The notes: generated from the letters alone by a model not told the origin. Positions 42,656 to 57,754 are shown, counted from the first letter of the stretch. The stretch is 64,000 bases of DNA from an uncultured Gammaproteobacteria bacterium (GCA_964599625.1 CAZRGC010000003.1:97759-161758), one strand, 5' to 3'. Program-made: numbers and translations.

Positions 42656-42841
42656 ATGGCAACAACAGCAAAAGAAGTAAGAGAAACAAAAAAATTAAAG
42701 TACGCAATTAGGTACCGCAATAGGTGCCGCCTTTGCGGAAGAAGCAGAGGTTACCTTAGAAAATATGGTATTTGCAGACTGTGTTTTAGAGAGCATGCCT
42801 TAAGAGGTGAAATTCCAGGTGTCAGAAAGGCAAGTTGGTAA
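42656..42841 (+). CDS. rpsZ: 30S ribosomal protein S14, type Z (zinc-binding)
   Basis: A 61-aa protein with CRLCGR…CRLC. Confidence 0.93.
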
Positions 42842-44201: not shown

Positions 44202-44708
44202 ATGGCAAATTTTAACCGAACATATGCCGACCAGGCACCAAAAGAATATGAGGAGACAGTTGTTCAAATAAACAGGATCTCCAAAAAGACAAAAGGTGGA
44301 AACACAATGAGATTTTCTGCACTTATTGTGGTGGGCAACAGAAAAGGAAGAGTTGGGGTTGGTATGGCCAAGGCACACGACGTTAGAAACGCAATCCGAA
44401 AATCAATCGAGGCAGCCAAAAGAAATTTGGTGGACGTTCCTCTTACTGGAACAACCATCCCTTACTCAGTAAGCGAAAAGTATTCTGCAGCTAAAATTCT
44501 TTTGAAACCAGCACCCCCCGGATCCGGAATTATTGCAGGCGGACCAATGAGAGTTGTTTTGGAAGCGGCAGGAATCAGAGATGCAGTCGGAAAAATTTTG
44601 GGAACAAAGAATAAAATTTCTAATGTTTATGCGACACTCAAGGCGCTGGAGCAAGTATCACGCCTTGTTGTTATGAAGAAAAATGAGCCAAAAGCAGAAA
44701 CTAAATAA
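44202..44708 (+). CDS. rpsE: 30S ribosomal protein S5
   Basis: A 168-aa protein with canonical S5 sequence. Confidence 0.95.
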   Translation: MANFNRTYADQAPKEYEETVVQINRISKKTKGGNTMRFSALIVVGNRKGRVGVGMAKAHDVRNAIRKSIEAAKRNLVDVPLTGTTIPYSVSEKYSAAKILLKPAPPGSGIIAGGPMRVVLEAAGIRDAVGKILGTKNKISNVYATLKALEQVSRLVVMKKNEPKAETK

Positions 44709-44710
44709 CT

Positions 44711-45118
44711 ATGAGCAAATTACCAAAAGTTGTAACAAAGTCAAAAAAGAGAATCGGTAGAGGTTTTGGAACCGGTAAAGGTGGACACACCACAAACCGC
44801 GGACAGAAGGGGCAAAAATCCCGTGGTTCCATTGGAGTTCTTTTCGAAGGAATGAAAGTCAAGAAGTCACTTCTTAAAAGACTTCCATTGCAGCGCGGAA
44901 AAGGAAAGTTCAAAGCCAACGGAAAACCGGTTATTGTTACCCTTACCGACCTGGATATTCTCCCAACCGGTAGTGAAATTACTTTAGATCTTTTGATCAA
45001 AGAGAACTTGGTCGACCCTATTTTAGGCCGAAAATTCGGAGTAAAAGTCTTGGGAGGAGGAAAATCTACCAAGAAATTTACTTTCAAAGTCCCAACTTCC
45101 AAATCTGTAGCCAAATAA
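44711..45118 (+). CDS. rplO: 50S ribosomal protein L15
   Basis: GRGFGTGKGGHTTNRGQKGQKSRG. It follows rpsE directly, so there is no rpmD. Confidence 0.94.
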   Translation: MSKLPKVVTKSKKRIGRGFGTGKGGHTTNRGQKGQKSRGSIGVLFEGMKVKKSLLKRLPLQRGKGKFKANGKPVIVTLTDLDILPTGSEITLDLLIKENLVDPILGRKFGVKVLGGGKSTKKFTFKVPTSKSVAK

Positions 45119-45122
45119 ATAT

Positions 45123-45599
45123 ATGACAGAAAGTCCAACACCTGTTGGAGAAGAAGCAGAAAAACTACAAAAAACATCACTTTTAGTGATGTATTCACGC
45201 CAAGATATGGCAGATACAGCCCTTGAGGTAATAAAAGAACTTAGGGAAGCAGGTCTTAATGTCATCGATATAAACGATAAGATTGCAGATGGCTCGTGGG
45301 TGGGTGAGTCGGATAAAATATTGGAAAATACCCCAGCAGTTCTTGTTATTCCATCAAAATCCATAAAAGAAGATGGTTTGGTTAAGGACGCAGTTTACCG
45401 TGCCGACATGCTAAGGGTAGAAAAAAGAAAGAGAATCGTTCCAATATTTTTTCAGGCTAATGCAAATGTTTCGATAGGAGGCCTTGGCAGCCTTGCCGGA
45501 ATAAATTGGGACGGTGAGACAGAAGGGATTCAAAATTTTGATAAGACTGCAGCTTTCGGCCACCTCAAAACTTTTGTCGCCCAAAATACTAATTCATAA
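45123..45599 (+). CDS. TIR-like (Toll/interleukin receptor / SLOG-type) single-domain protein, putative
   Basis: The TIR fold order is followed: betaA LLVMYSRQD, alphaA ALEVIKELREAG, betaB NVIDIN…IADG, AVLVIPSKS, and betaD RIVPIFF. The call rests on motif topology only. Confidence 0.4.
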   Translation: MTESPTPVGEEAEKLQKTSLLVMYSRQDMADTALEVIKELREAGLNVIDINDKIADGSWVGESDKILENTPAVLVIPSKSIKEDGLVKDAVYRADMLRVEKRKRIVPIFFQANANVSIGGLGSLAGINWDGETEGIQNFDKTAAFGHLKTFVAQNTNS

Positions 45600-45601
45600 A
45601 C

Positions 45602-46030
45602 ATGGAAACAATTAAACCTAACGGGTTTTTGACAAGCTTCGAGTTTGAGGGATTAAAACTTCCTGTGGAATACGTGAGAACAGATCAAGTTTGTGAGGGT
45701 GTAACTTGCGACGTTTACAAATTTTGGGGAGACAAAAAGAAGGACTTGGCGATAATAACAATACAACCTGACGCCAAAACACCACCCCAAAAAGTTTTGT
45801 CGGGAGAAAAAACAATCGAAGGATATATTTCGGGATCGGGTGTATTTACAGTGAAAAAGGACGACGGGGGTGAAGAAAGAATATTGGTAGAAGATAAGCC
45901 CACAGAGTACTTTTCAATTCAAGTAAACGTAGGGGACACAATGCAATGGAAAGCTTCGGAAGATTCTATTCTTACTGTTTTTGAAGTTTGCTACCCCCCA
46001 TACGAAGACGGCAGGTTTCAAAATCTTTAG
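45602..46030 (+). CDS. cupin-fold protein, putative
   Basis: A beta-rich 142-aa protein with a GYISGSG…(acidic)…ILVEDKP pattern like cupin motifs 1 and 2. Confidence 0.35.
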   Translation: METIKPNGFLTSFEFEGLKLPVEYVRTDQVCEGVTCDVYKFWGDKKKDLAIITIQPDAKTPPQKVLSGEKTIEGYISGSGVFTVKKDDGGEERILVEDKPTEYFSIQVNVGDTMQWKASEDSILTVFEVCYPPYEDGRFQNL

Positions 46031-46045
46031 TGTTATACTTCCAAT

Positions 46046-46489
46046 ATGTCCCGCGATAGATTCAGACTTCTTGCAGCGTGTTACTTATTGCCAATAAAGG
46101 GGAAGAAAGTTCTTTTGTCCCGCCGTTTTAACACTGGCTGGAAGGATGGTTGGTATTCCTTGATTGCAGGGCATTTGGATGGCAACGAATCTGTAAGCGA
46201 CTCAATGATTCGTGAAGCGAAAGAGGAGTCTGGTATTGAAATTGCCAAAAAAGACTTGGTTCCTTTAACCTCCGTTCACCACAAAACAGAAGACTCAGAA
46301 TATGTGGACTTTTTCTTCGCAGTAAAAAAGTGGAAAGGTGAACCGCAAATCAAGGAGCCCAACAAGTGTGACGATATGTCCTGGTTTCCAATAGACAAAC
46401 TTCCGGAAAAATTACTTCCACACGTTAAGCAAATAATTCAAAACCTGGACTCCAATGTTCCTTTTTTTGAACACGGATGGAACAAATAA
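46046..46489 (+). CDS. NUDIX hydrolase
   Basis: The Nudix box GHLDGNESVSDSMIREAKEESGIEI fits Gx5Ex7REUxEExGU. Confidence 0.8.
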   Translation: MSRDRFRLLAACYLLPIKGKKVLLSRRFNTGWKDGWYSLIAGHLDGNESVSDSMIREAKEESGIEIAKKDLVPLTSVHHKTEDSEYVDFFFAVKKWKGEPQIKEPNKCDDMSWFPIDKLPEKLLPHVKQIIQNLDSNVPFFEHGWNK

Positions 46490-46504
46490 CTGCTAAACTA
46501 TTTT

Positions 46505-47476
46505 GTGGCTCAAAAAGAAGACGACTCCTACCAAAAATATCTTGAAGACAAACACTTGGCATTTGCAACGCCCGAAAGTCTGGTATCGTCTATGGTAAAA
46601 AAGGCAACGGGATCAGAACCCTTTTCTGTCGAAAAGTTGATTCAGGGTGAAGTGAACGAGGTTTATGATGTGGAGGCTGGTGGTCAAAATGTAATAGTAA
46701 GAATTTCCCGACAAGGACCGGAAAATTTTGAAACCGAAGAAACTGTAATACGCCTCGCTTTGCAAGCAGGTGTACCCGCTCCCAAAGTTCTTCTTTTGGA
46801 ATCTGCCTCAACCGAAACCGAAGAATTGACCTTTTGTATAGAAGAAAAGATTGAAGGAAAGCCATTGAAAGAATTACTAAAAACTCTGGACGCAGAAACT
46901 CTCAAGGCAATTCTGATTCAGTCGGGCGAGATATTATCCCGTATCCATTCATTGGAAACGGACAGATTTGGGCCCTTGGATAGGCAGGTCTTTTATCCTT
47001 CATGGACAGAATATTTATTCAGGAAGGAAGAAAATAAACGTGAGATAATTGAGTATGGCTCTAAAGTGGGACTCCTGCCCGGTGTTATAGATAAAGCCTT
47101 TTCTATACAAAGGAAAAACTCAGGAATTTTGGAAATACAAATCCCCTATATTCTGCACGGCGATTTTAGTCCCAAACACATTCTCACGAATGGAAAAACA
47201 GTCACTGGAATAATAGATTTTGAAGACGCCAAAGGAGGCGATCCGGTGAGAGATATTGCTTGGATGAACTTTTTTTATGGCGATTCGGTAAATCTTGAGT
47301 GGTTTTTAGAAGGATACGGAAGGGAAAAAACAGGAATGGACTTTGATATAAAAATGAGACTTTTGAAAGTTAACTTGGGACTGGACCTGTTGGATTATTA
47401 CGGATCAGAAGGTAATATTTCAGGACTTAAATACTCGAAACGTAAATTGGAGGAAGAGATGGAATTTTTCAAATGA
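46505..47476 (+). CDS. phosphotransferase-family kinase (APH/choline-kinase-like fold)
   Basis: The Brenner motif is ILHGDFSPKHIL and the metal-binding segment is IIDFEDAKGGDPVRDIAWM. A Lys-containing N-lobe is present. Confidence 0.65.
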   Translation: MAQKEDDSYQKYLEDKHLAFATPESLVSSMVKKATGSEPFSVEKLIQGEVNEVYDVEAGGQNVIVRISRQGPENFETEETVIRLALQAGVPAPKVLLLESASTETEELTFCIEEKIEGKPLKELLKTLDAETLKAILIQSGEILSRIHSLETDRFGPLDRQVFYPSWTEYLFRKEENKREIIEYGSKVGLLPGVIDKAFSIQRKNSGILEIQIPYILHGDFSPKHILTNGKTVTGIIDFEDAKGGDPVRDIAWMNFFYGDSVNLEWFLEGYGREKTGMDFDIKMRLLKVNLGLDLLDYYGSEGNISGLKYSKRKLEEEMEFFK

Positions 47477-47483
47477 CCCGACA

Positions 47484-48065
47484 ATGAATTCAAACACAAT
47501 AGTAATTTTGGGAACCCTGATTGGTGCAATTGGCTCGATCTTTTATCTTGTCGACGTTGTTAAGGGAAAAATAAAACCCAATCGGGTTTCTTTTATTCTT
47601 TGGTCACTCCCACCATTGATATCTGCATACGCAAATATTAAAAGTGGCGGTGGAATTGAATCTTTAATGACTTTTAGTGTTGGTTTTTTTCCACTGCTTA
47701 TATTTTTGGCAACTTTTCTCAACAAAAAATCCGTTTGGAAACTTACCAAATTTGATTTTGTTTGCGGCGCACTTTCACTTTTGGGATTCCTGCTTTGGCA
47801 GGTAACAAAAGAAGGATATTTGGCAATAACTTTTAGTATAGTTTCCGATTTTTTGGCTGGAATTCCCACCATAACAAAAACTTACAAACACCCAGAAACG
47901 GAACTGGCTTGGCCCTGGTTGATGCCGGTCTTGGGAGAAATTCTTACACTTTCCACACTTGGGGATATTACTTATCTCAACTCAGGTTTCATGATTTACG
48001 TAACTTTGTATAACACAGTCATTTTTCTTTTGGCGCAGTATAAAATCGGAAAGATATGGAAATAA
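47484..48065 (+). CDS. integral membrane protein, hypothetical
   Basis: 193 aa with about six TM helices. Confidence 0.45.
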   Translation: MNSNTIVILGTLIGAIGSIFYLVDVVKGKIKPNRVSFILWSLPPLISAYANIKSGGGIESLMTFSVGFFPLLIFLATFLNKKSVWKLTKFDFVCGALSLLGFLLWQVTKEGYLAITFSIVSDFLAGIPTITKTYKHPETELAWPWLMPVLGEILTLSTLGDITYLNSGFMIYVTLYNTVIFLLAQYKIGKIWK

Positions 48066-48562
48066 TTAAACTACCTGTTTCAGAGTGGAAAAGTTATAAA
48101 GCAATAAGGCTTCGAGCTCTCAAGGAAGACCCTCAGGCATTTGGAGCCTCATACGACGATGCGGTCAAATTTGACGAGTCCGAATGGAGACGCAGGCTTG
48201 AAAATGCCGAAAATTCGGACAGAAGTTGGTTATGGTTTGCACAAGAAAACCAGAAAATTGTAGGCCTTATTGGGGCATATATGGAAAAAGGTGCAACAAA
48301 TGAGGCAACTATAGTTTCTGTTTTTGTTCCCAAGGAAGAAAGAGGGAAAGGAATATCGAGCCTTTTGATGGATAAGATGATATCCGAACTTTCAGCTAAA
48401 CCATATCTCAAAAAAATTAATTTGACTGTGAACAAAGACCAAGTAGCGGCCGTAAATCTTTATACAAAGTTTGGTTTCGTAAAAGTCGGTGAGCAAAATT
48501 TTAAAATGGGAAACGGTCAGAAGGCTGTGGAATTTGTTATGGAAAGACAAATTAGCACTTAA
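48056..48562 (+). CDS. GNAT family N-acetyltransferase
   Basis: Acetyl-CoA motif A is VFVPKEERGKGISSLLMDKM. The size is 168 aa. Confidence 0.7.
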   Translation: MEIIKLPVSEWKSYKAIRLRALKEDPQAFGASYDDAVKFDESEWRRRLENAENSDRSWLWFAQENQKIVGLIGAYMEKGATNEATIVSVFVPKEERGKGISSLLMDKMISELSAKPYLKKINLTVNKDQVAAVNLYTKFGFVKVGEQNFKMGNGQKAVEFVMERQIST

Positions 48563-48606
48563 GGTCTGTCATTGATAACTTAGTTGCGATATAATTCAAC
48601 TTCGGT

Positions 48607-49890
48607 ATGTTTGAACAAATTTTGAATTTCTTCAAGAAAGCTGTAACCACACCTTCTATTAGGAAGAAGCTTCTGGTTACCGCGGTTATCCTTGTTGTAT
48701 TTCGTTTGGCAGGACATATCCCGGCCGCAGGAATAGATCGCAATACACTCACCGCACTCTTTTTGGGAAGCCCTCTTCTTTCGCTTTTGGATGTGTTTTC
48801 CGGAGGAACTCTTGCAAACTTTTCTATTTTGGCCTTAGGGCTTAACCCTTACATCAATGCATCCATTATTTTGCAGCTTTTGGGTTATGTAGTTCCATCG
48901 TTGGAAGCCTTGCAAAAAGAGGGTGAGTACGGCCAGGAGAAAATAAATCAGTACACAAGGCTTTTGACAGTGCCTCTTGCGGCTCTCCAGGCGTTTGGTA
49001 TGTACGCACTCCTTAAGGGGCAAAATGTAATTTCCAATCTTGCTCCTTTGGAACTTTTGGCTTTGGTGATTACGATGACAGCCGGAACTGTTTTCTCGGT
49101 TTGGTTGGGAGAGCTGATTAGCGAGTATGGATTTAAAAATGGAGTTTCCCTGCTAATTTTTACAGGAATAGTAGCAAGACTTCCTGTTGTTTTGGGACAG
49201 TCGGCCAGTGTTGTACAGTCGCAGGATATTCTGAAAGTAATTCTCTTCCTGGTTGTAGCAGCTTTGGTTGTGGGAATGATTATTTTCATAAGTGAAGCTT
49301 CCCGCAAAATCCCAATACACTATGCAAAAAGACGCACCGACACAGGTTTGGGGGCAACTTCCTATTTACCACTAAGACTCAATCAAGCAGGTGTGATTCC
49401 TATCATATTCGCGGTTTCATTGGTTTTGATACCTTCGCTTATGGGTCAGTTTTTGGCCAACATTCCAAATGCTGCTGTTGCGAATGCTGCCAGATTCATA
49501 AGTACTGCATTTAATCCCCAGTCTGTTGTCTATAACCTTACATATTTTGTTTTAGTGTTTGGTTTCACTTATTTTTATACAGCGGTTATTTTCAATCCGG
49601 ATAAAATTTCCGAAGATTTACAAAAAGGTGGAGGTTTTATTCCGGGAATCAGACCCGGAAAAGAAACATCCAAATATTTGTCTTTCGTTTTGTCTCGTTT
49701 GACAGTGGTTGGAGGAGTGTTTTTGGGTTTGGTTGCTGTCATGCCTTCTTTCTTTCAAAATTCGATTGGTGCCAGTAATTTAGCAATTGGAGGAACTGGG
49801 GTGTTGATTGTTGTTTCTGTGGCTTTGGAAATTGTCAGAGAAATGGAAGGTGAGTTGGTAATGGGTAAGTATGAAGGTTTTCTAAGATGA
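48607..49890 (+). CDS. secY: preprotein translocase subunit SecY
   Basis: 427 aa with 10 TM helices and canonical SecY blocks. Confidence 0.96.
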
Positions 49891-57180: not shown

Positions 57181-57253
57181 CGGGGTGTAGTTTACCGGTA
57201 GAATGGGCGCATGGGGTGCGTCCGGACTGAGTTCAATTCTCAGCACCCCGACC
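57181..57253 (+). tRNA. tRNA-Pro (anticodon GGG)
   Basis: A hand-folded cloverleaf. The acceptor is cggggtg/caccccg. The D-arm is gttt-accggta-gaat (A14, G18G19, A21). The anticodon arm is ggcgc-atGGGgt-gcgtc (U33). The variable loop is 4 nt. The T-arm is ctgag-TTCAATT-ctcag. The discriminator is A, followed by CC. Confidence 0.8.
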
Positions 57254-57754
57254 GAATGGTGGGTTTAGTTTATAAAGGTCGGCAAGGGTTTTTTTGACGC
57301 TTTCAAAACCGATATTTTTAAGATTTGGAATATCTTTGATATCCACCCAAACCAGTTCTGATACGTCGTCACTTGCTTCTATCTCTCCACCCGTAATCTC
57401 CACAATAAACTGAAATACTAATATTGGTTTGTCCGCATCACCATATGTGTCGGGATAATTCCCGAGAAGTCTGATTACTTTAACATCAAGCCCTGTTTCT
57501 TCTTTTGTTTCCCGAATAGCAGCCTCTTCAGCTGACTCTCCCGGGTTTATAAATCCTCCAATCACATCATATGTTCCTTTGAATGGTTCGTTTTTTCTTA
57601 TTGCCAGAAGTACTTTATTGTTTTTTATGGGAATTGCTGAGGCGCCGGGTACAGGGTCTTGGTAAATACTAAACCCGCAGTCCAAACAAATGATTTTGGT
57701 TTCTTTGAGGTCCAGTTTCCGACTTCCGCAAACAGGGCAAAATATATATTTCAT
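57233..57754 (-). CDS. NUDIX hydrolase with N-terminal zinc ribbon (NudC-like)
   Basis: The zinc ribbon is CPVCG…CLDCG and the Nudix box is GGFINPGESAEEAAIRETKEETGLDV. The start is taken at MKYIF (57754), where ATGA overlaps the upstream gene's stop. The longer ORF running to 57874 is rejected. Confidence 0.75.
   Translation of the reverse strand: MKYIFCPVCGSRKLDLKETKIICLDCGFSIYQDPVPGASAIPIKNNKVLLAIRKNEPFKGTYDVIGGFINPGESAEEAAIRETKEETGLDVKVIRLLGNYPDTYGDADKPILVFQFIVEITGGEIEASDDVSELVWVDIKDIPNLKNIGFESVKKTLADLYKLNPPFGRGAEN

What the first reader, a model, noticed from the sequence alone, without database searches (positions are those of the whole stretch)
45123..46489. Possible TIR-like domain protein adjacent to a NUDIX hydrolase (NAD+/ADP-ribose signalling pair?)
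The 158-aa ORF at 45123 follows the TIR fold order. This is LLVMYSRQD (betaA), an acidic helix ending in AGL, NVIDIND…DG (betaB), AVLVIPSKS, and RIVPIFF (betaD). Bacterial TIR domains are NAD+ glycohydrolases or cyclases in Thoeris, CBASS and other defence systems. Two genes downstream is a canonical NUDIX hydrolase, a family that hydrolyses ADP-ribose and its derivatives. A second, NudC-like NUDIX lies at 57233-57754. This could be a minimal TIR/NUDIX signalling or counter-defence module. Alternatively the ORF is a TIR-like SLOG nucleotide-binding protein unrelated to defence.
Basis: inference. Interest (0 to 1): 0.55.

Follow-up and report, generated by a model that had tools for sequence, protein, structure and literature searches.

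The report
Hypervariable glutamate-less TIR gene in ribosomal operon
The 158-aa ORF really is a TIR-fold protein, but it lacks the catalytic glutamate of NAD-cleaving TIR enzymes and shows no specific link to the nearby NUDIX; what stands out is that it sits inside the ribosomal-protein operon and occurs as very different alleles in otherwise closely related genomes.

Summary

The NAD+/ADPR signalling reading is not supported. The pocket-facing side of helix alphaC is L/P86-A90-A94, and both alignments put Ala at the catalytic-Glu column. The NUDIX is MutT/NUDT1-like. In sister lineages a HAD phosphatase replaces or joins it. There are no significant PADLOC, PHROG or viral hits.

The gene is the first of six (TIR-like, cupin, NUDIX, APH-like kinase, 193-aa membrane protein, GNAT) wedged between rplO and secY in a probable Patescibacteria genome. 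The family is tiny: 47 representatives among 1.84 billion.

The unexpected result is hypervariability. In genomes whose L15 is 99% and cupin 94-96% identical, this protein is only 53-74% identical. The trough is sharp and ORF-sized, the gene tree disagrees with the flanks, and there is direct evidence of recombination.

Best reading (confidence 0.42): a non-catalytic, adaptor-like TIR module with allele-specific interaction surfaces. Function is unproven.

The parts
44711..45118 (+). rplO (ribosomal protein L15), the conserved upstream flank; its stop codon is 4 nt before the TIR-like start
   Evidence: Pfam Ribosomal_L27A. 99.3% aa identity to L003, L004, L007 and L008. S5 ends at 44708, so there is no L30 gene.
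45123..45599 (+). TIR-like ORF, 158 aa: a single TIR_2-fold domain preceded by a short N-terminal helix; it lacks the catalytic Glu
   Evidence: fold and family. (Ala90/Ala94 at the catalytic column).
45123..45161 (+). Conserved 5' end of the ORF (MTESPTPVGEE), the left edge of the variable tract; contains the palindrome TCCAACACCTGTTGGA at 45134-45149
   Evidence: Nucleotide identity 0.85-1.00 here against 0.4-0.7 just downstream. Alignment A6. The hairpin is not significant, z -1.66.
45162..45601 (+). Hypervariable tract covering the rest of the TIR-like ORF
   Evidence: Nucleotide identity 0.40-0.72 to L003 and L007 while the flanks are 0.93-1.00; identity returns to 1.00 (L003) or 0.85 (L007) at 45602. 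pN 0.16-0.30 against at most 0.065 in every neighbouring gene.
45602..46030 (+). 142-aa cupin-fold protein of unknown function; its start is 2 nt after the TIR-like stop; it is the conserved right flank
46046..46489 (+). NUDIX hydrolase, 147 aa, MutT/NUDT1-like, with an intact Nudix box
   Evidence: PF00293 E 4.8e-18. Best PDB matches are RhNUDX1 at 2.5e-14 and AtNUDT1 at 1e-10. Replaced by a HAD in L001 and accompanied by a HAD in L018.
46505..47476 (+). APH-family small-molecule kinase, 323 aa
   Evidence: PF01636 E 8.8e-23. Weak similarity to APH(4)-Ia, APH(2'') and Mph, all far below the family cut-offs.
47484..48065 (+). 193-aa hydrophobic protein, a probable multi-pass membrane protein, function unknown
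   Evidence: No Pfam, NCBIfam or informative PDB hit. Conserved in all sister loci long enough to reach this position.
48056..48562 (+). GNAT N-acetyltransferase, 168 aa; overlaps the preceding gene by 10 nt
   Evidence: PF00583 E 4.7e-17. RimI-like at 8.4e-14, below the cut-off.
48607..49890 (+). secY, where the conserved operon resumes; adk and map follow
   Evidence: PF00344 E 5.8e-106. The sister loci have the same order.

Best explanation
ORF 45123-45599 encodes a small, divergent member of the TIR_2 branch of the TIR superfamily. It has kept the TIR core: the YS-x-x-D loop, the I-D-x-x-D betaB, the V-I-P-S betaC, the V-P-I betaD and a family-specific G-I-N-W-D-G betaE. It has lost the Trp/Glu catalytic face of helix alphaC. 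I therefore think it works like the non-enzymatic adaptor TIRs (MyD88, TRIF, TRAM, SEFIR), as a protein-protein interaction or sensing module and not as an NAD+ glycohydrolase or cyclase. It is the first gene of a lineage-specific six-gene insert (TIR-like, cupin, NUDIX and/or HAD, APH-like kinase, membrane protein, GNAT) packed without room for signals between rplO and secY. It is presumably co-transcribed with the ribosomal-protein operon and expressed constitutively. Within a group of closely related, recombining genomes the gene exists as at least three deeply diverged alleles that are swapped by homologous recombination through the conserved flanks. The differences are concentrated on alphaA, the BB loop and alphaB, which are the surfaces TIR domains use to bind partners. 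That pattern is typical of genes in a biological conflict or a self/partner-recognition role. The NUDIX, HAD, kinase and GNAT genes look like ordinary house-cleaning or salvage enzymes that share the same insertion site, not parts of a signalling pair. Shown here: fold, family, absence of the catalytic Glu, gene order, allele divergence and recombination. Inferred: lack of enzymatic activity, co-transcription, an interaction or sensor role, and selection for diversity.
Against: No experiment or residue-level structural superposition was possible, so the absence of a catalytic residue rests on two sequence alignments that differ by one helical turn. Asp89 (present in 5 of 8) and Asp95 (window and L007 alleles only) lie next to the aligned positions and could in principle substitute. 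Many residues on the classical pocket side are conserved (Y24, S25, D28, D49, N51, D52, W59 in most, N128, W129, D130), which would also fit a ligand-binding or unusual catalytic site. The backbone is itself mosaic: APH has nearly as much silent-site divergence (4-fold mismatch 0.48-0.56 vs 0.57-0.59), so silent sites alone do not make the TIR-like gene unique. The sample is small: three alleles in one backbone and five lineages in all. No interaction partner has been identified. Nothing ties the gene to phages: there are no PADLOC, PHROG or viral hits.
Confidence: 0.42

Rival explanations
1. First reader's model. The TIR-like protein is an active NAD+ glycohydrolase or cyclase that uses a non-canonical acid (D89, D95 or E100). 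The NUDIX, or the HAD in sister lineages, degrades or processes its ADPR-type product, forming a minimal signalling, detoxification or counter-defence pair.
For: True TIR fold. Several pocket-side residues are conserved. Hydrolases acting on phosphate (HAD) or diphosphate (NUDIX) linkages recur near the gene: NUDIX in the window, L003, L004 and L007; HAD in L001; both in L018. A HAD of the same subfamily (TIGR02247-like, 30% identity, E 4e-26) lies directly after a Zn-ribbon relative in L009 and L012.
Against: The catalytic Glu column is Ala in both alignments. D89 and D95 are not conserved in the family. E100 lies 5 residues before betaD, at the end of alphaC that points away from the pocket (inference from TIR topology). 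The NUDIX is MutT/NUDT1-like, and its match to ADP-ribose diphosphatase is only E 0.023. The NUDIX can be lost (L001). A cupin gene separates the two. The Zn-ribbon relative P0015 has no hydrolase next to it.
Confidence: 0.12
2. Housekeeping reading. The TIR-like domain is a small-molecule or nucleotide-binding regulatory subunit of a salvage or house-cleaning operon (cupin, NUDIX/HAD, APH-like kinase, membrane transporter, GNAT) in a metabolically reduced bacterium, and it diverges quickly simply because it is weakly constrained.
For: The six-gene order is conserved in five lineages. The neighbours are all small-molecule enzymes. The loops on the ligand-binding side of the fold are the best conserved parts. 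pN/pS of 0.22-0.40 is below 1.
Against: Weak constraint explains neither the disagreement between the gene tree and the flank tree nor the sharp ORF-sized trough. Within one allele class dN/dS is 0.05, which means strong constraint. In L022 the cupin plus a NUDIX occupy the same site without any TIR-like gene, so the enzymes do not need it.
Confidence: 0.2
3. Translation-linked reading. The protein is a ribosome- or translation-associated factor, which would explain why both the short form and a Zn-ribbon form sit directly after rplO and why another relative sits after a DRG-type ribosome-binding GTPase.
For: The short form follows L15 in every locus. The Zn-ribbon form P0007 also follows an L15 gene (63% identity; L010). 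P0008 follows an MMR_HSR1/TGS GTPase.
Against: The L15-secY junction is a general insertion site in this clade; L022 carries unrelated genes there. The P0015 relative lies next to a PolX-like gene, and L025 has unrelated neighbours. A core translation factor would not be expected to be only 53% identical between genomes whose ribosomal proteins are 98-100% identical.
Confidence: 0.1
4. Artefact reading. The apparent hypervariability comes from chimeric metagenome assemblies, or from comparing paralogues instead of alleles.
For: All comparison loci are metagenome contigs.
Against: Allele C was recovered on five contigs, of which the four shown come from four sequencing runs, and allele B on two contigs from two runs, always with the same flanks. 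The window allele is on a 211-kb contig. Each locus carries one copy at the same position. The reading frames are intact and of equal length.
Confidence: 0.04

Closest known systems
Bacterial TIR_2 (PF13676) domain proteins
   Same: Sequence-level homology above the Pfam cut-off and the same beta-alpha core motifs (YS-R-x-D, I-D-x-x-D, V-L-S, V-I-P-I).
   Different: Typical TIR_2 proteins have an invariant Glu on alphaC (E78 in alignment A3); this family has Ala there. Here alphaC is one turn longer, betaE carries a family-specific GINWDG motif, and the protein is a stand-alone 158-aa domain.
Enzymatic TIRs: SARM1, plant TIR-NLRs (RPP1, L6, RPS4), AbTir, ThsB, TIR-SAVED, TIR-STING and the SPARTA TIR-APAZ
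   Different: No equivalent of W638 or E642. No fused or neighbouring sensor (SAVED, STING, ThsA, Argonaute, NB-ARC). No CD-NTase. No match to the Pfam ThsB_TIR model (PF08937) at E up to 1, and the only PADLOC match is the sub-significant SAVED_TIR hit (E 0.017).
Animal adaptor TIRs (TRIF, TRAM, MyD88, MAL) and SEFIR domains
   Different: Only 10-15% sequence identity. The resemblance is one of fold and presumed mode of action, not of family membership. Oligomerisation has not been tested.
Zn-ribbon + TIR-like proteins (P0007-P0009, P0015, P0016, P0026, P0035, P0050; uncharacterised)
   Same: The nearest relatives (E 1e-24 to 1e-4), sharing the same Glu-less TIR-like domain and the GINW motif. 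One also follows L15 and one precedes a HAD of the same subfamily.
   Different: They carry an N-terminal CxxC...CxxC zinc ribbon of about 55 aa that the window's subfamily lacks. Their contexts are otherwise varied.
Nucleoside 2-deoxyribosyltransferase, LOG/SLOG and DUF1863 families
   Different: Clearly more distant than TIR. No Pfam hit to these families at E up to 1. No PGGxGTxxE LOG motif in the sequence (read).

Membership tests
TIR superfamily, TIR_2 (PF13676) | Sequence match above the curated Pfam gathering score | tested here: met
   36.9 bits against a cut-off of 28, E 6e-9, residues 22-131 on profile positions 3-110 of 122.
TIR superfamily, TIR_2 (PF13676) | Profile-profile homology to bona fide TIR_2 domains | tested here: met
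   hhalign probability 98.9%, E 1.5e-17, 108 aligned columns.
TIR superfamily, TIR_2 (PF13676) | Flavodoxin-like betaA-alphaA ... betaE-alphaE fold with TIR domains as the nearest structural neighbours | tested here: met
Enzymatic TIR NADases and cyclases (SARM1, ThsB, AbTir, plant TIR) | Catalytic glutamate on alphaC (SARM1 E642) | tested here: not met
   It aligns to Ala90 (hhalign) or Ala94 (HMMER). Ala94 is invariant, and position 90 is A, V or C in the 8 closest sequences.
Enzymatic TIR NADases and cyclases (SARM1, ThsB, AbTir, plant TIR) | Aromatic residue one turn before the Glu (SARM1 W638; the S-x-W motif of plant TIRs) | tested here: not met
   It aligns to L/P86 or A90.
Enzymatic TIR NADases and cyclases (SARM1, ThsB, AbTir, plant TIR) | BB-loop aromatic that contributes to the NAD+ site (SARM1 F603) | tested here: inconclusive
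   W59 aligns with F603, but it is W in 5 of 8, L in P0004 and V in P0007 and P0008.
Enzymatic TIR NADases and cyclases (SARM1, ThsB, AbTir, plant TIR) | NAD+ cleavage or cyclisation activity, dependent on self-association | not testable with these tools
   Needs a biochemical assay.
Thoeris (ThsB TIR + ThsA) | A ThsA effector (SIR2- or TM-SLOG/Macro) next to the TIR gene, and a ThsB_TIR (PF08937) match | tested here: not met
   The neighbours are L15, cupin, NUDIX, APH, a membrane protein and GNAT. There is no PF08937 hit at E up to 1 and no Thoeris hit in PADLOC.
CBASS/Pycsar/type III CRISPR TIR effectors (TIR-SAVED, TIR-STING, Cat1) | A fused cyclic-nucleotide sensor domain and a nearby cyclase | tested here: not met
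   Single-domain 158-aa protein. The PADLOC SAVED_TIR hit is only E 0.017 and covers the TIR part alone. There is no cyclase in the operon.
Nucleoside 2-deoxyribosyltransferase and LOG/SLOG | Closest fold or sequence match to these families; the PGGxGTxxE motif (LOG) | tested here: not met
NUDIX hydrolase (ORF 46046-46489) | Nudix box G-x5-E-x7-R-E-U-x-E-E-x-G-U and a PF00293 match | tested here: met
   GHLDGNESVSDSMIREAKEESGI at residues 42-64. PF00293 65.9 bits against a cut-off of 21.1.
ADP-ribose or NAD-specific NUDIX (NudF/NudE/NudC) for ORF 46046-46489 | A match reaching the equivalog cut-off of an ADPR or NAD diphosphatase model | tested here: not met
   NudC 34.4 bits (cut-off 158), NudE 22.9 (169), ADP-ribose diphosphatase 14 (248). 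The best PDB relatives are RhNUDX1, AtNUDT1 and MutT-type enzymes.

The most novel reading that the evidence does not exclude
A constitutively expressed, glutamate-less TIR-fold protein embedded in the ribosomal-protein operon of a Patescibacteria lineage is kept as ancient, recombining alleles because it is a specificity determinant in a biological conflict. It could be, for example, a non-enzymatic immune sensor or decoy that recognises phage proteins, or a partner-recognition factor of an episymbiont. That would be an adaptor-type TIR in bacteria and a new kind of variable immune locus located inside a core operon.
Probability: 0.2. Interest if true: 0.72.

Novelty: new variant of a known kind. 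Interest (0 to 1): 0.45.

Why it matters
Bacterial TIR domains are now almost automatically read as NAD+-consuming defence enzymes. This case shows a bona fide TIR fold that has lost the catalytic face. It belongs to a very small family and is not in a defence island but inside the most conserved operon of the genome. If the allele diversity reflects selection, it would point to a non-enzymatic, adaptor-like use of TIR domains in bacteria. It would also show that the rplO-secY junction serves as a variable locus in Patescibacteria, which matters for people who use this operon as a phylogenetic marker or assembly anchor. If the diversity is only recombinational mosaicism, the finding is a modest annotation correction: a TIR-like protein of unknown function and an unrelated MutT-like NUDIX.

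Tried and rejected
(1) PDB sequence search with the single protein found only noise. With the family profile, SARM1 appeared only at E 0.14, so homology had to be shown through Pfam, hhalign and structure.

(2) PADLOC gave no significant hit for the TIR-like ORF (SAVED_TIR E 0.017). The NUDIX hit to candidate PDC-S07 (1.8e-9) is generic NUDIX similarity. I rejected a known defence system.

(3) PHROGs and a viral-contig scan found no relatives. I rejected a phage origin or a phage counter-defence gene.

(4) I considered cupin+NUDIX as the real conserved pair. A NUDIX lies near this cupin family in L022 and L019 as well, but those NUDIX proteins are only about 25% identical to the window's, so this is not an orthologous pair. 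I kept it only as a weak association.

(5) I first read saturated NG86 pS (0.75) as proof of ancient alleles. Checking 4-fold sites at codons encoding the same amino acid showed that APH is almost as diverged (0.48-0.56 vs 0.57-0.59). I therefore dropped silent-site depth as the unique feature and rely instead on pN, tree incongruence, the sharp edges and the allele-pairing test.

(6) The 5' palindrome at 45134-45149 as a recombination or regulatory hairpin: the fold z-score is -1.66, which is not significant, and there is no matching repeat at the 3' edge. Not pursued.

(7) E100 as a displaced catalytic Glu: it lies 7 residues before Pro107, whereas the catalytic Glu lies 13 residues before the equivalent Pro in SARM1 and TIR_2. 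It sits at the betaD-proximal end of alphaC. Rejected.

(8) I do not rely on the organism labels 'uncultured Gammaproteobacteria' (L011) and 'Ca. Asgardarchaeum' (L012). The secY-adk-map-infA order and the absence of L30 do not fit Gammaproteobacteria.

(9) The genome and metagenome scans added only Zn-ribbon relatives with unrelated contexts.

(10) Four literature searches found no earlier description.

Full report
1. What is at the coordinates

ORF 45123-45599 (+, ATG, 158 aa) exists as described. It starts 4 nt after the stop of rplO (L15, 44711-45118). It ends 2 nt before a 142-aa ORF (45602-46030). After that come a NUDIX (46046-46489), an APH-family kinase (46505-47476), a 193-aa hydrophobic protein (47484-48065), a GNAT (48056-48562, overlapping by 10 nt) and then secY (48607-49890), adk and map.

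So the finding lies in a six-gene insert inside the ribosomal-protein operon. All genes are on one strand, and the gaps run from -10 to 44 nt. Promoter- and terminator-like sites are no more frequent than in shuffled sequence.

S5 is followed directly by L15 with no L30 gene, and secY-adk-map follows. Homologues of the 142-aa protein are named Saccharibacteria or Patescibacteria by their sources. From this I infer a Patescibacteria (CPR) genome.

2. Is it a TIR domain?

Yes.
- Pfam TIR_2 (PF13676) scores 36.9 bits against a gathering cut-off of 28 (E 6e-9).
- A profile of eight family members aligns to an alignment of eight bona fide TIR_2 domains plus the SARM1 TIR with hhalign probability 98.9%, E 1.5e-17.
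- AlphaFold2 gives a confident model (pLDDT 86.7, pTM 0.85) with the order betaA 19-23, alphaA 26-42, betaB 46-49, alphaB 59-69, betaC 73-75, alphaC 85-101, betaD 105-109 and alphaE 141-157.
- All top-50 Foldseek hits in the PDB are TIR domains.

3. Is it a TIR enzyme?

Probably not in the canonical sense. In the alignment of bona fide TIR_2 domains the catalytic Glu is invariant (E78 of A3, which is SARM1 E642). hhalign places that column on Ala90 of the window protein and places the following invariant Ala on Ala94. This makes alphaC one turn longer. HMMER against SARM1 places E642 on Ala94 and W638 on Ala90.

The two registers differ by exactly one helical turn, so both identify the same helix face: positions 86, 90 and 94. 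That face reads L/P/E/V/K, then A/V/C, then A in all eight closest sequences. Across fourteen family members no acidic residue is conserved in that stretch.

Asp89 is present in 5 of 8, and Asp95 only in the window and L007 alleles. The nearly invariant Glu100 lies 7 residues before Pro107. In SARM1 and TIR_2 the catalytic Glu lies 13 residues before the equivalent Pro. Glu100 therefore sits at the end of alphaC that leads into betaD, away from the pocket (topological inference). I could not do a residue-level structural superposition, which is the main gap in this argument.

4. How big is the family, and what are its relatives?

It is very small.
- The word-indexed search of 5.8 billion clusters found six short-form members and two longer ones.
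- An exhaustive HMMER search of 1.84 billion representatives found 47 hits at E up to 1e-3, only 3 of them below 1e-10.
- The weaker hits are ordinary multi-TIR_2 proteins.
- The nearest relatives are proteins of about 205-218 aa with an N-terminal CxxC...CxxC zinc ribbon fused to the same Glu-less domain.
- A scan of 185,579 species genomes found three loci, a scan of JGI metagenomes found three, and viral contigs gave none.

5. Context in relatives

Every short-form member is encoded in the same place, directly after L15 and before the cupin. The third slot varies:
- NUDIX in the window, L003, L004 and L007.
- A HAD-IA phosphatase in L001 and L002.
- Both HAD and NUDIX in L018.

The TIR-NUDIX pairing is therefore not obligatory. 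A HAD of the same subfamily follows a Zn-ribbon relative in L009 and L012 (30% identity, E 4e-26; both match TIGR02247 best). I take this recurrence as the only point in favour of a link to a phosphate-ester hydrolase. Another Zn-ribbon relative stands alone next to a PolX-like gene.

A related lineage (L022) has a different insert between L15 and secY: the cupin, a non-orthologous NUDIX (26% identity over an 85-residue local match), TPR, GrpB, CYTH and DHH genes, and no TIR-like gene. The rplO-secY junction is therefore a general insertion site in this clade, which weakens guilt-by-association arguments.

6. The neighbours

- The NUDIX has a complete Nudix box. It is closest to RhNUDX1 (2.5e-14), AtNUDT1 (1e-10) and MutT-type enzymes. 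Its matches to NudC, NudE and ADP-ribose diphosphatase are far below the family cut-offs.
- The TIR-like ORF's best PADLOC match is not significant (SAVED_TIR, E 0.017).
- The second NUDIX (57233-57754, minus strand) has a zinc ribbon and resembles NudC at 60 bits against a cut-off of 158. It is 11 kb away on the other strand and is not part of this block.

7. The unexpected result: hypervariability

I compared each window protein with the sister loci.

| Gene | Identity to L003/L004 | Identity to L007/L008 |
|---|---|---|
| L24, L5, S14, L18 | 100% | L18 100%; S14 100% over the 42 aa present; L24 and L5 not on these contigs |
| L15 | 99.3% | 99.3% |
| TIR-like | 53.5% | 74% |
| cupin | 95.8% | 94.4% |
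| NUDIX | 92% | 91% |
| APH | 89% | 90.7% |
| SecY | not covered | 99.6% |

- pN for the TIR-like gene is 0.16-0.30, against at most 0.065 for all ten neighbouring genes.
- Nucleotide identity is 0.95-1.00 through L15 and the first ~40 nt of the ORF (MTESPTPVGEE). It drops to 0.40-0.72 from about 45162 to 45601. At 45602, the cupin start, it returns to 1.00 (L003) or 0.85 (L007).
- The gene tree disagrees with the flanks. L003's allele is 84% identical to L018's but only 53.5% to the window's. For L15 and the cupin, the window and L003 are far closer to each other than either is to L018.
- Recombination in this population is directly visible. S5 alleles pair L003=L008 and L004=L007, while TIR and cupin alleles pair L003=L004 and L007=L008.
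- Alleles B and C were each assembled independently from several sequencing runs.
- Within allele class C, dN/dS is 0.05, so each allele is under purifying selection.

Caveat: I first took saturated NG86 pS (0.75) as proof of ancient alleles. Four-fold sites at codons encoding the same amino acid show that APH is nearly as diverged (0.48-0.56 vs 0.57-0.59). There are also two lesser troughs at the NUDIX/APH and APH/membrane gene junctions. The whole insert is therefore mosaic. What is unique to the TIR-like gene is its amino-acid divergence, its incongruence with the flanks and its ORF-sized edges.

Variation is concentrated on alphaA (mean pairwise identity 0.42), the BB loop (0.44) and alphaB (0.40). 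The YS loop (1.0), betaC (0.81), betaD (0.87) and GINWDG (0.94) are conserved.

8. Interpretation

The most economical reading is a TIR-fold protein that has given up catalysis and acts through its surfaces, as adaptor TIRs and SEFIR domains do. It has allele-specific interaction surfaces that are exchanged by homologous recombination through the conserved flanks. It is expressed together with the ribosomal-protein operon. Deep alleles held under purifying selection are what one sees at conflict or recognition loci, but I have no direct link to phages or to a partner.

I give this reading 0.42. The rivals are:
- A housekeeping ligand-binding subunit: 0.20.
- A translation-associated factor: 0.10.
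- An assembly artefact: 0.04.
- The remainder is unassigned.

9. Novelty and score

The domain family is known. The Glu-less subfamily, its position inside the rplO-secY junction and its allele hypervariability are not described in the literature I could search. I rate it a new variant of a known kind, with interest 0.45. The proposed TIR/NUDIX signalling pair is not supported. The locus does show an odd and testable pattern, but its function remains inferred.

Noticed in passing
window 45119-48606; L022:6998-11746: The rplO-secY junction, normally a tight gene pair, acts as a variable insertion site in this clade. The window carries six genes there. The related locus L022 carries a different set: the cupin, a 137-aa ORF, a non-orthologous NUDIX, TPR, GrpB, CYTH, DHH/DHHA2 and a 98-aa ORF. 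Several of these are enzymes that act on nucleotides or phosphate esters.
   Followed up: partly
window 46505-47476 and 48056-48562: An APH-family kinase (weak similarity to APH(4), APH(2'') and Mph macrolide kinases) and a GNAT (weak similarity to RimI, streptothricin acetyltransferases and AAC(3)) sit inside the ribosomal-protein operon. They could be enzymes that modify ribosome-targeting antibiotics and are co-expressed with the ribosome, but all family matches are far below the cut-offs.
   Followed up: no
window 46340-46700 and 47230-47600: Two further, shallower divergence troughs (nucleotide identity 0.65-0.83 to L004 and L007 against a 0.93-1.00 backbone) straddle the NUDIX/APH and APH/membrane-protein gene junctions. 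APH has 4-fold-site mismatch of 0.48-0.56 although its protein is about 90% identical. The whole insert is a recombinational mosaic.
   Followed up: partly
L003, L004, L007, L008 (S5, L15, TIR, cupin genes): Allele pairings switch along the operon. S5 is identical in L003=L008 and in L004=L007, but TIR and cupin are identical in L003=L004 and in L007=L008. This is direct evidence of homologous recombination between co-existing strains of this uncultivated lineage.
   Followed up: yes
window 45134-45149: A perfect palindrome, TCCAACACCTGTTGGA, encodes the conserved SPTPVG of the N-terminus at the left edge of the variable tract. The CCAAC/GTTGG stem is kept even in L001, where the loop differs. 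The predicted fold is not significant (z -1.66), and there is no counterpart at the right edge.
   Followed up: partly
L010:2-403 and 439-1059; L009:2-817 and 1134-1790: The Zn-ribbon form of the family also lies directly after an L15 gene in L010 (63% identity to the window's L15). In L009 and L012 it follows a DRG-type GTPase (MMR_HSR1 + Xtn + TGS) on a contig labelled Ca. Asgardarchaeum. This could mean a link to translation or transfer between Patescibacteria and archaea.
   Followed up: partly
window 57233-57754 (-) and 57181-57253 (+): The second NUDIX has an N-terminal zinc ribbon (CPVCGS...CLDCG). It resembles NudC below the family cut-off (60 vs 158 bits), and no SQPWPFPxS-type motif is visible after the Nudix box. 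Its 3' end overlaps the tRNA-Pro(GGG) gene on the opposite strand by about 20 nt.
   Followed up: partly
window 44202-45118; 42656-42841: There is no L30 gene between S5 and L15, and S14 is the short 61-aa zinc-binding type. The sister MAG GCA_964600575.1 is labelled 'uncultured Gammaproteobacteria', which does not fit the secY-adk-map-infA operon layout. The label is probably wrong.
   Followed up: no
window 45602-46030: The cupin family has invariant Y39, T60, Q63, E73, Y75, M114-Q115-W116, E128, C130, P132 and R138. It has Gln63 where I expected a metal-binding His of the classical cupin motif. That reading is by eye from the sequence and the classical motif is from my own knowledge; I did not align it to a cupin motif.
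   Followed up: partly
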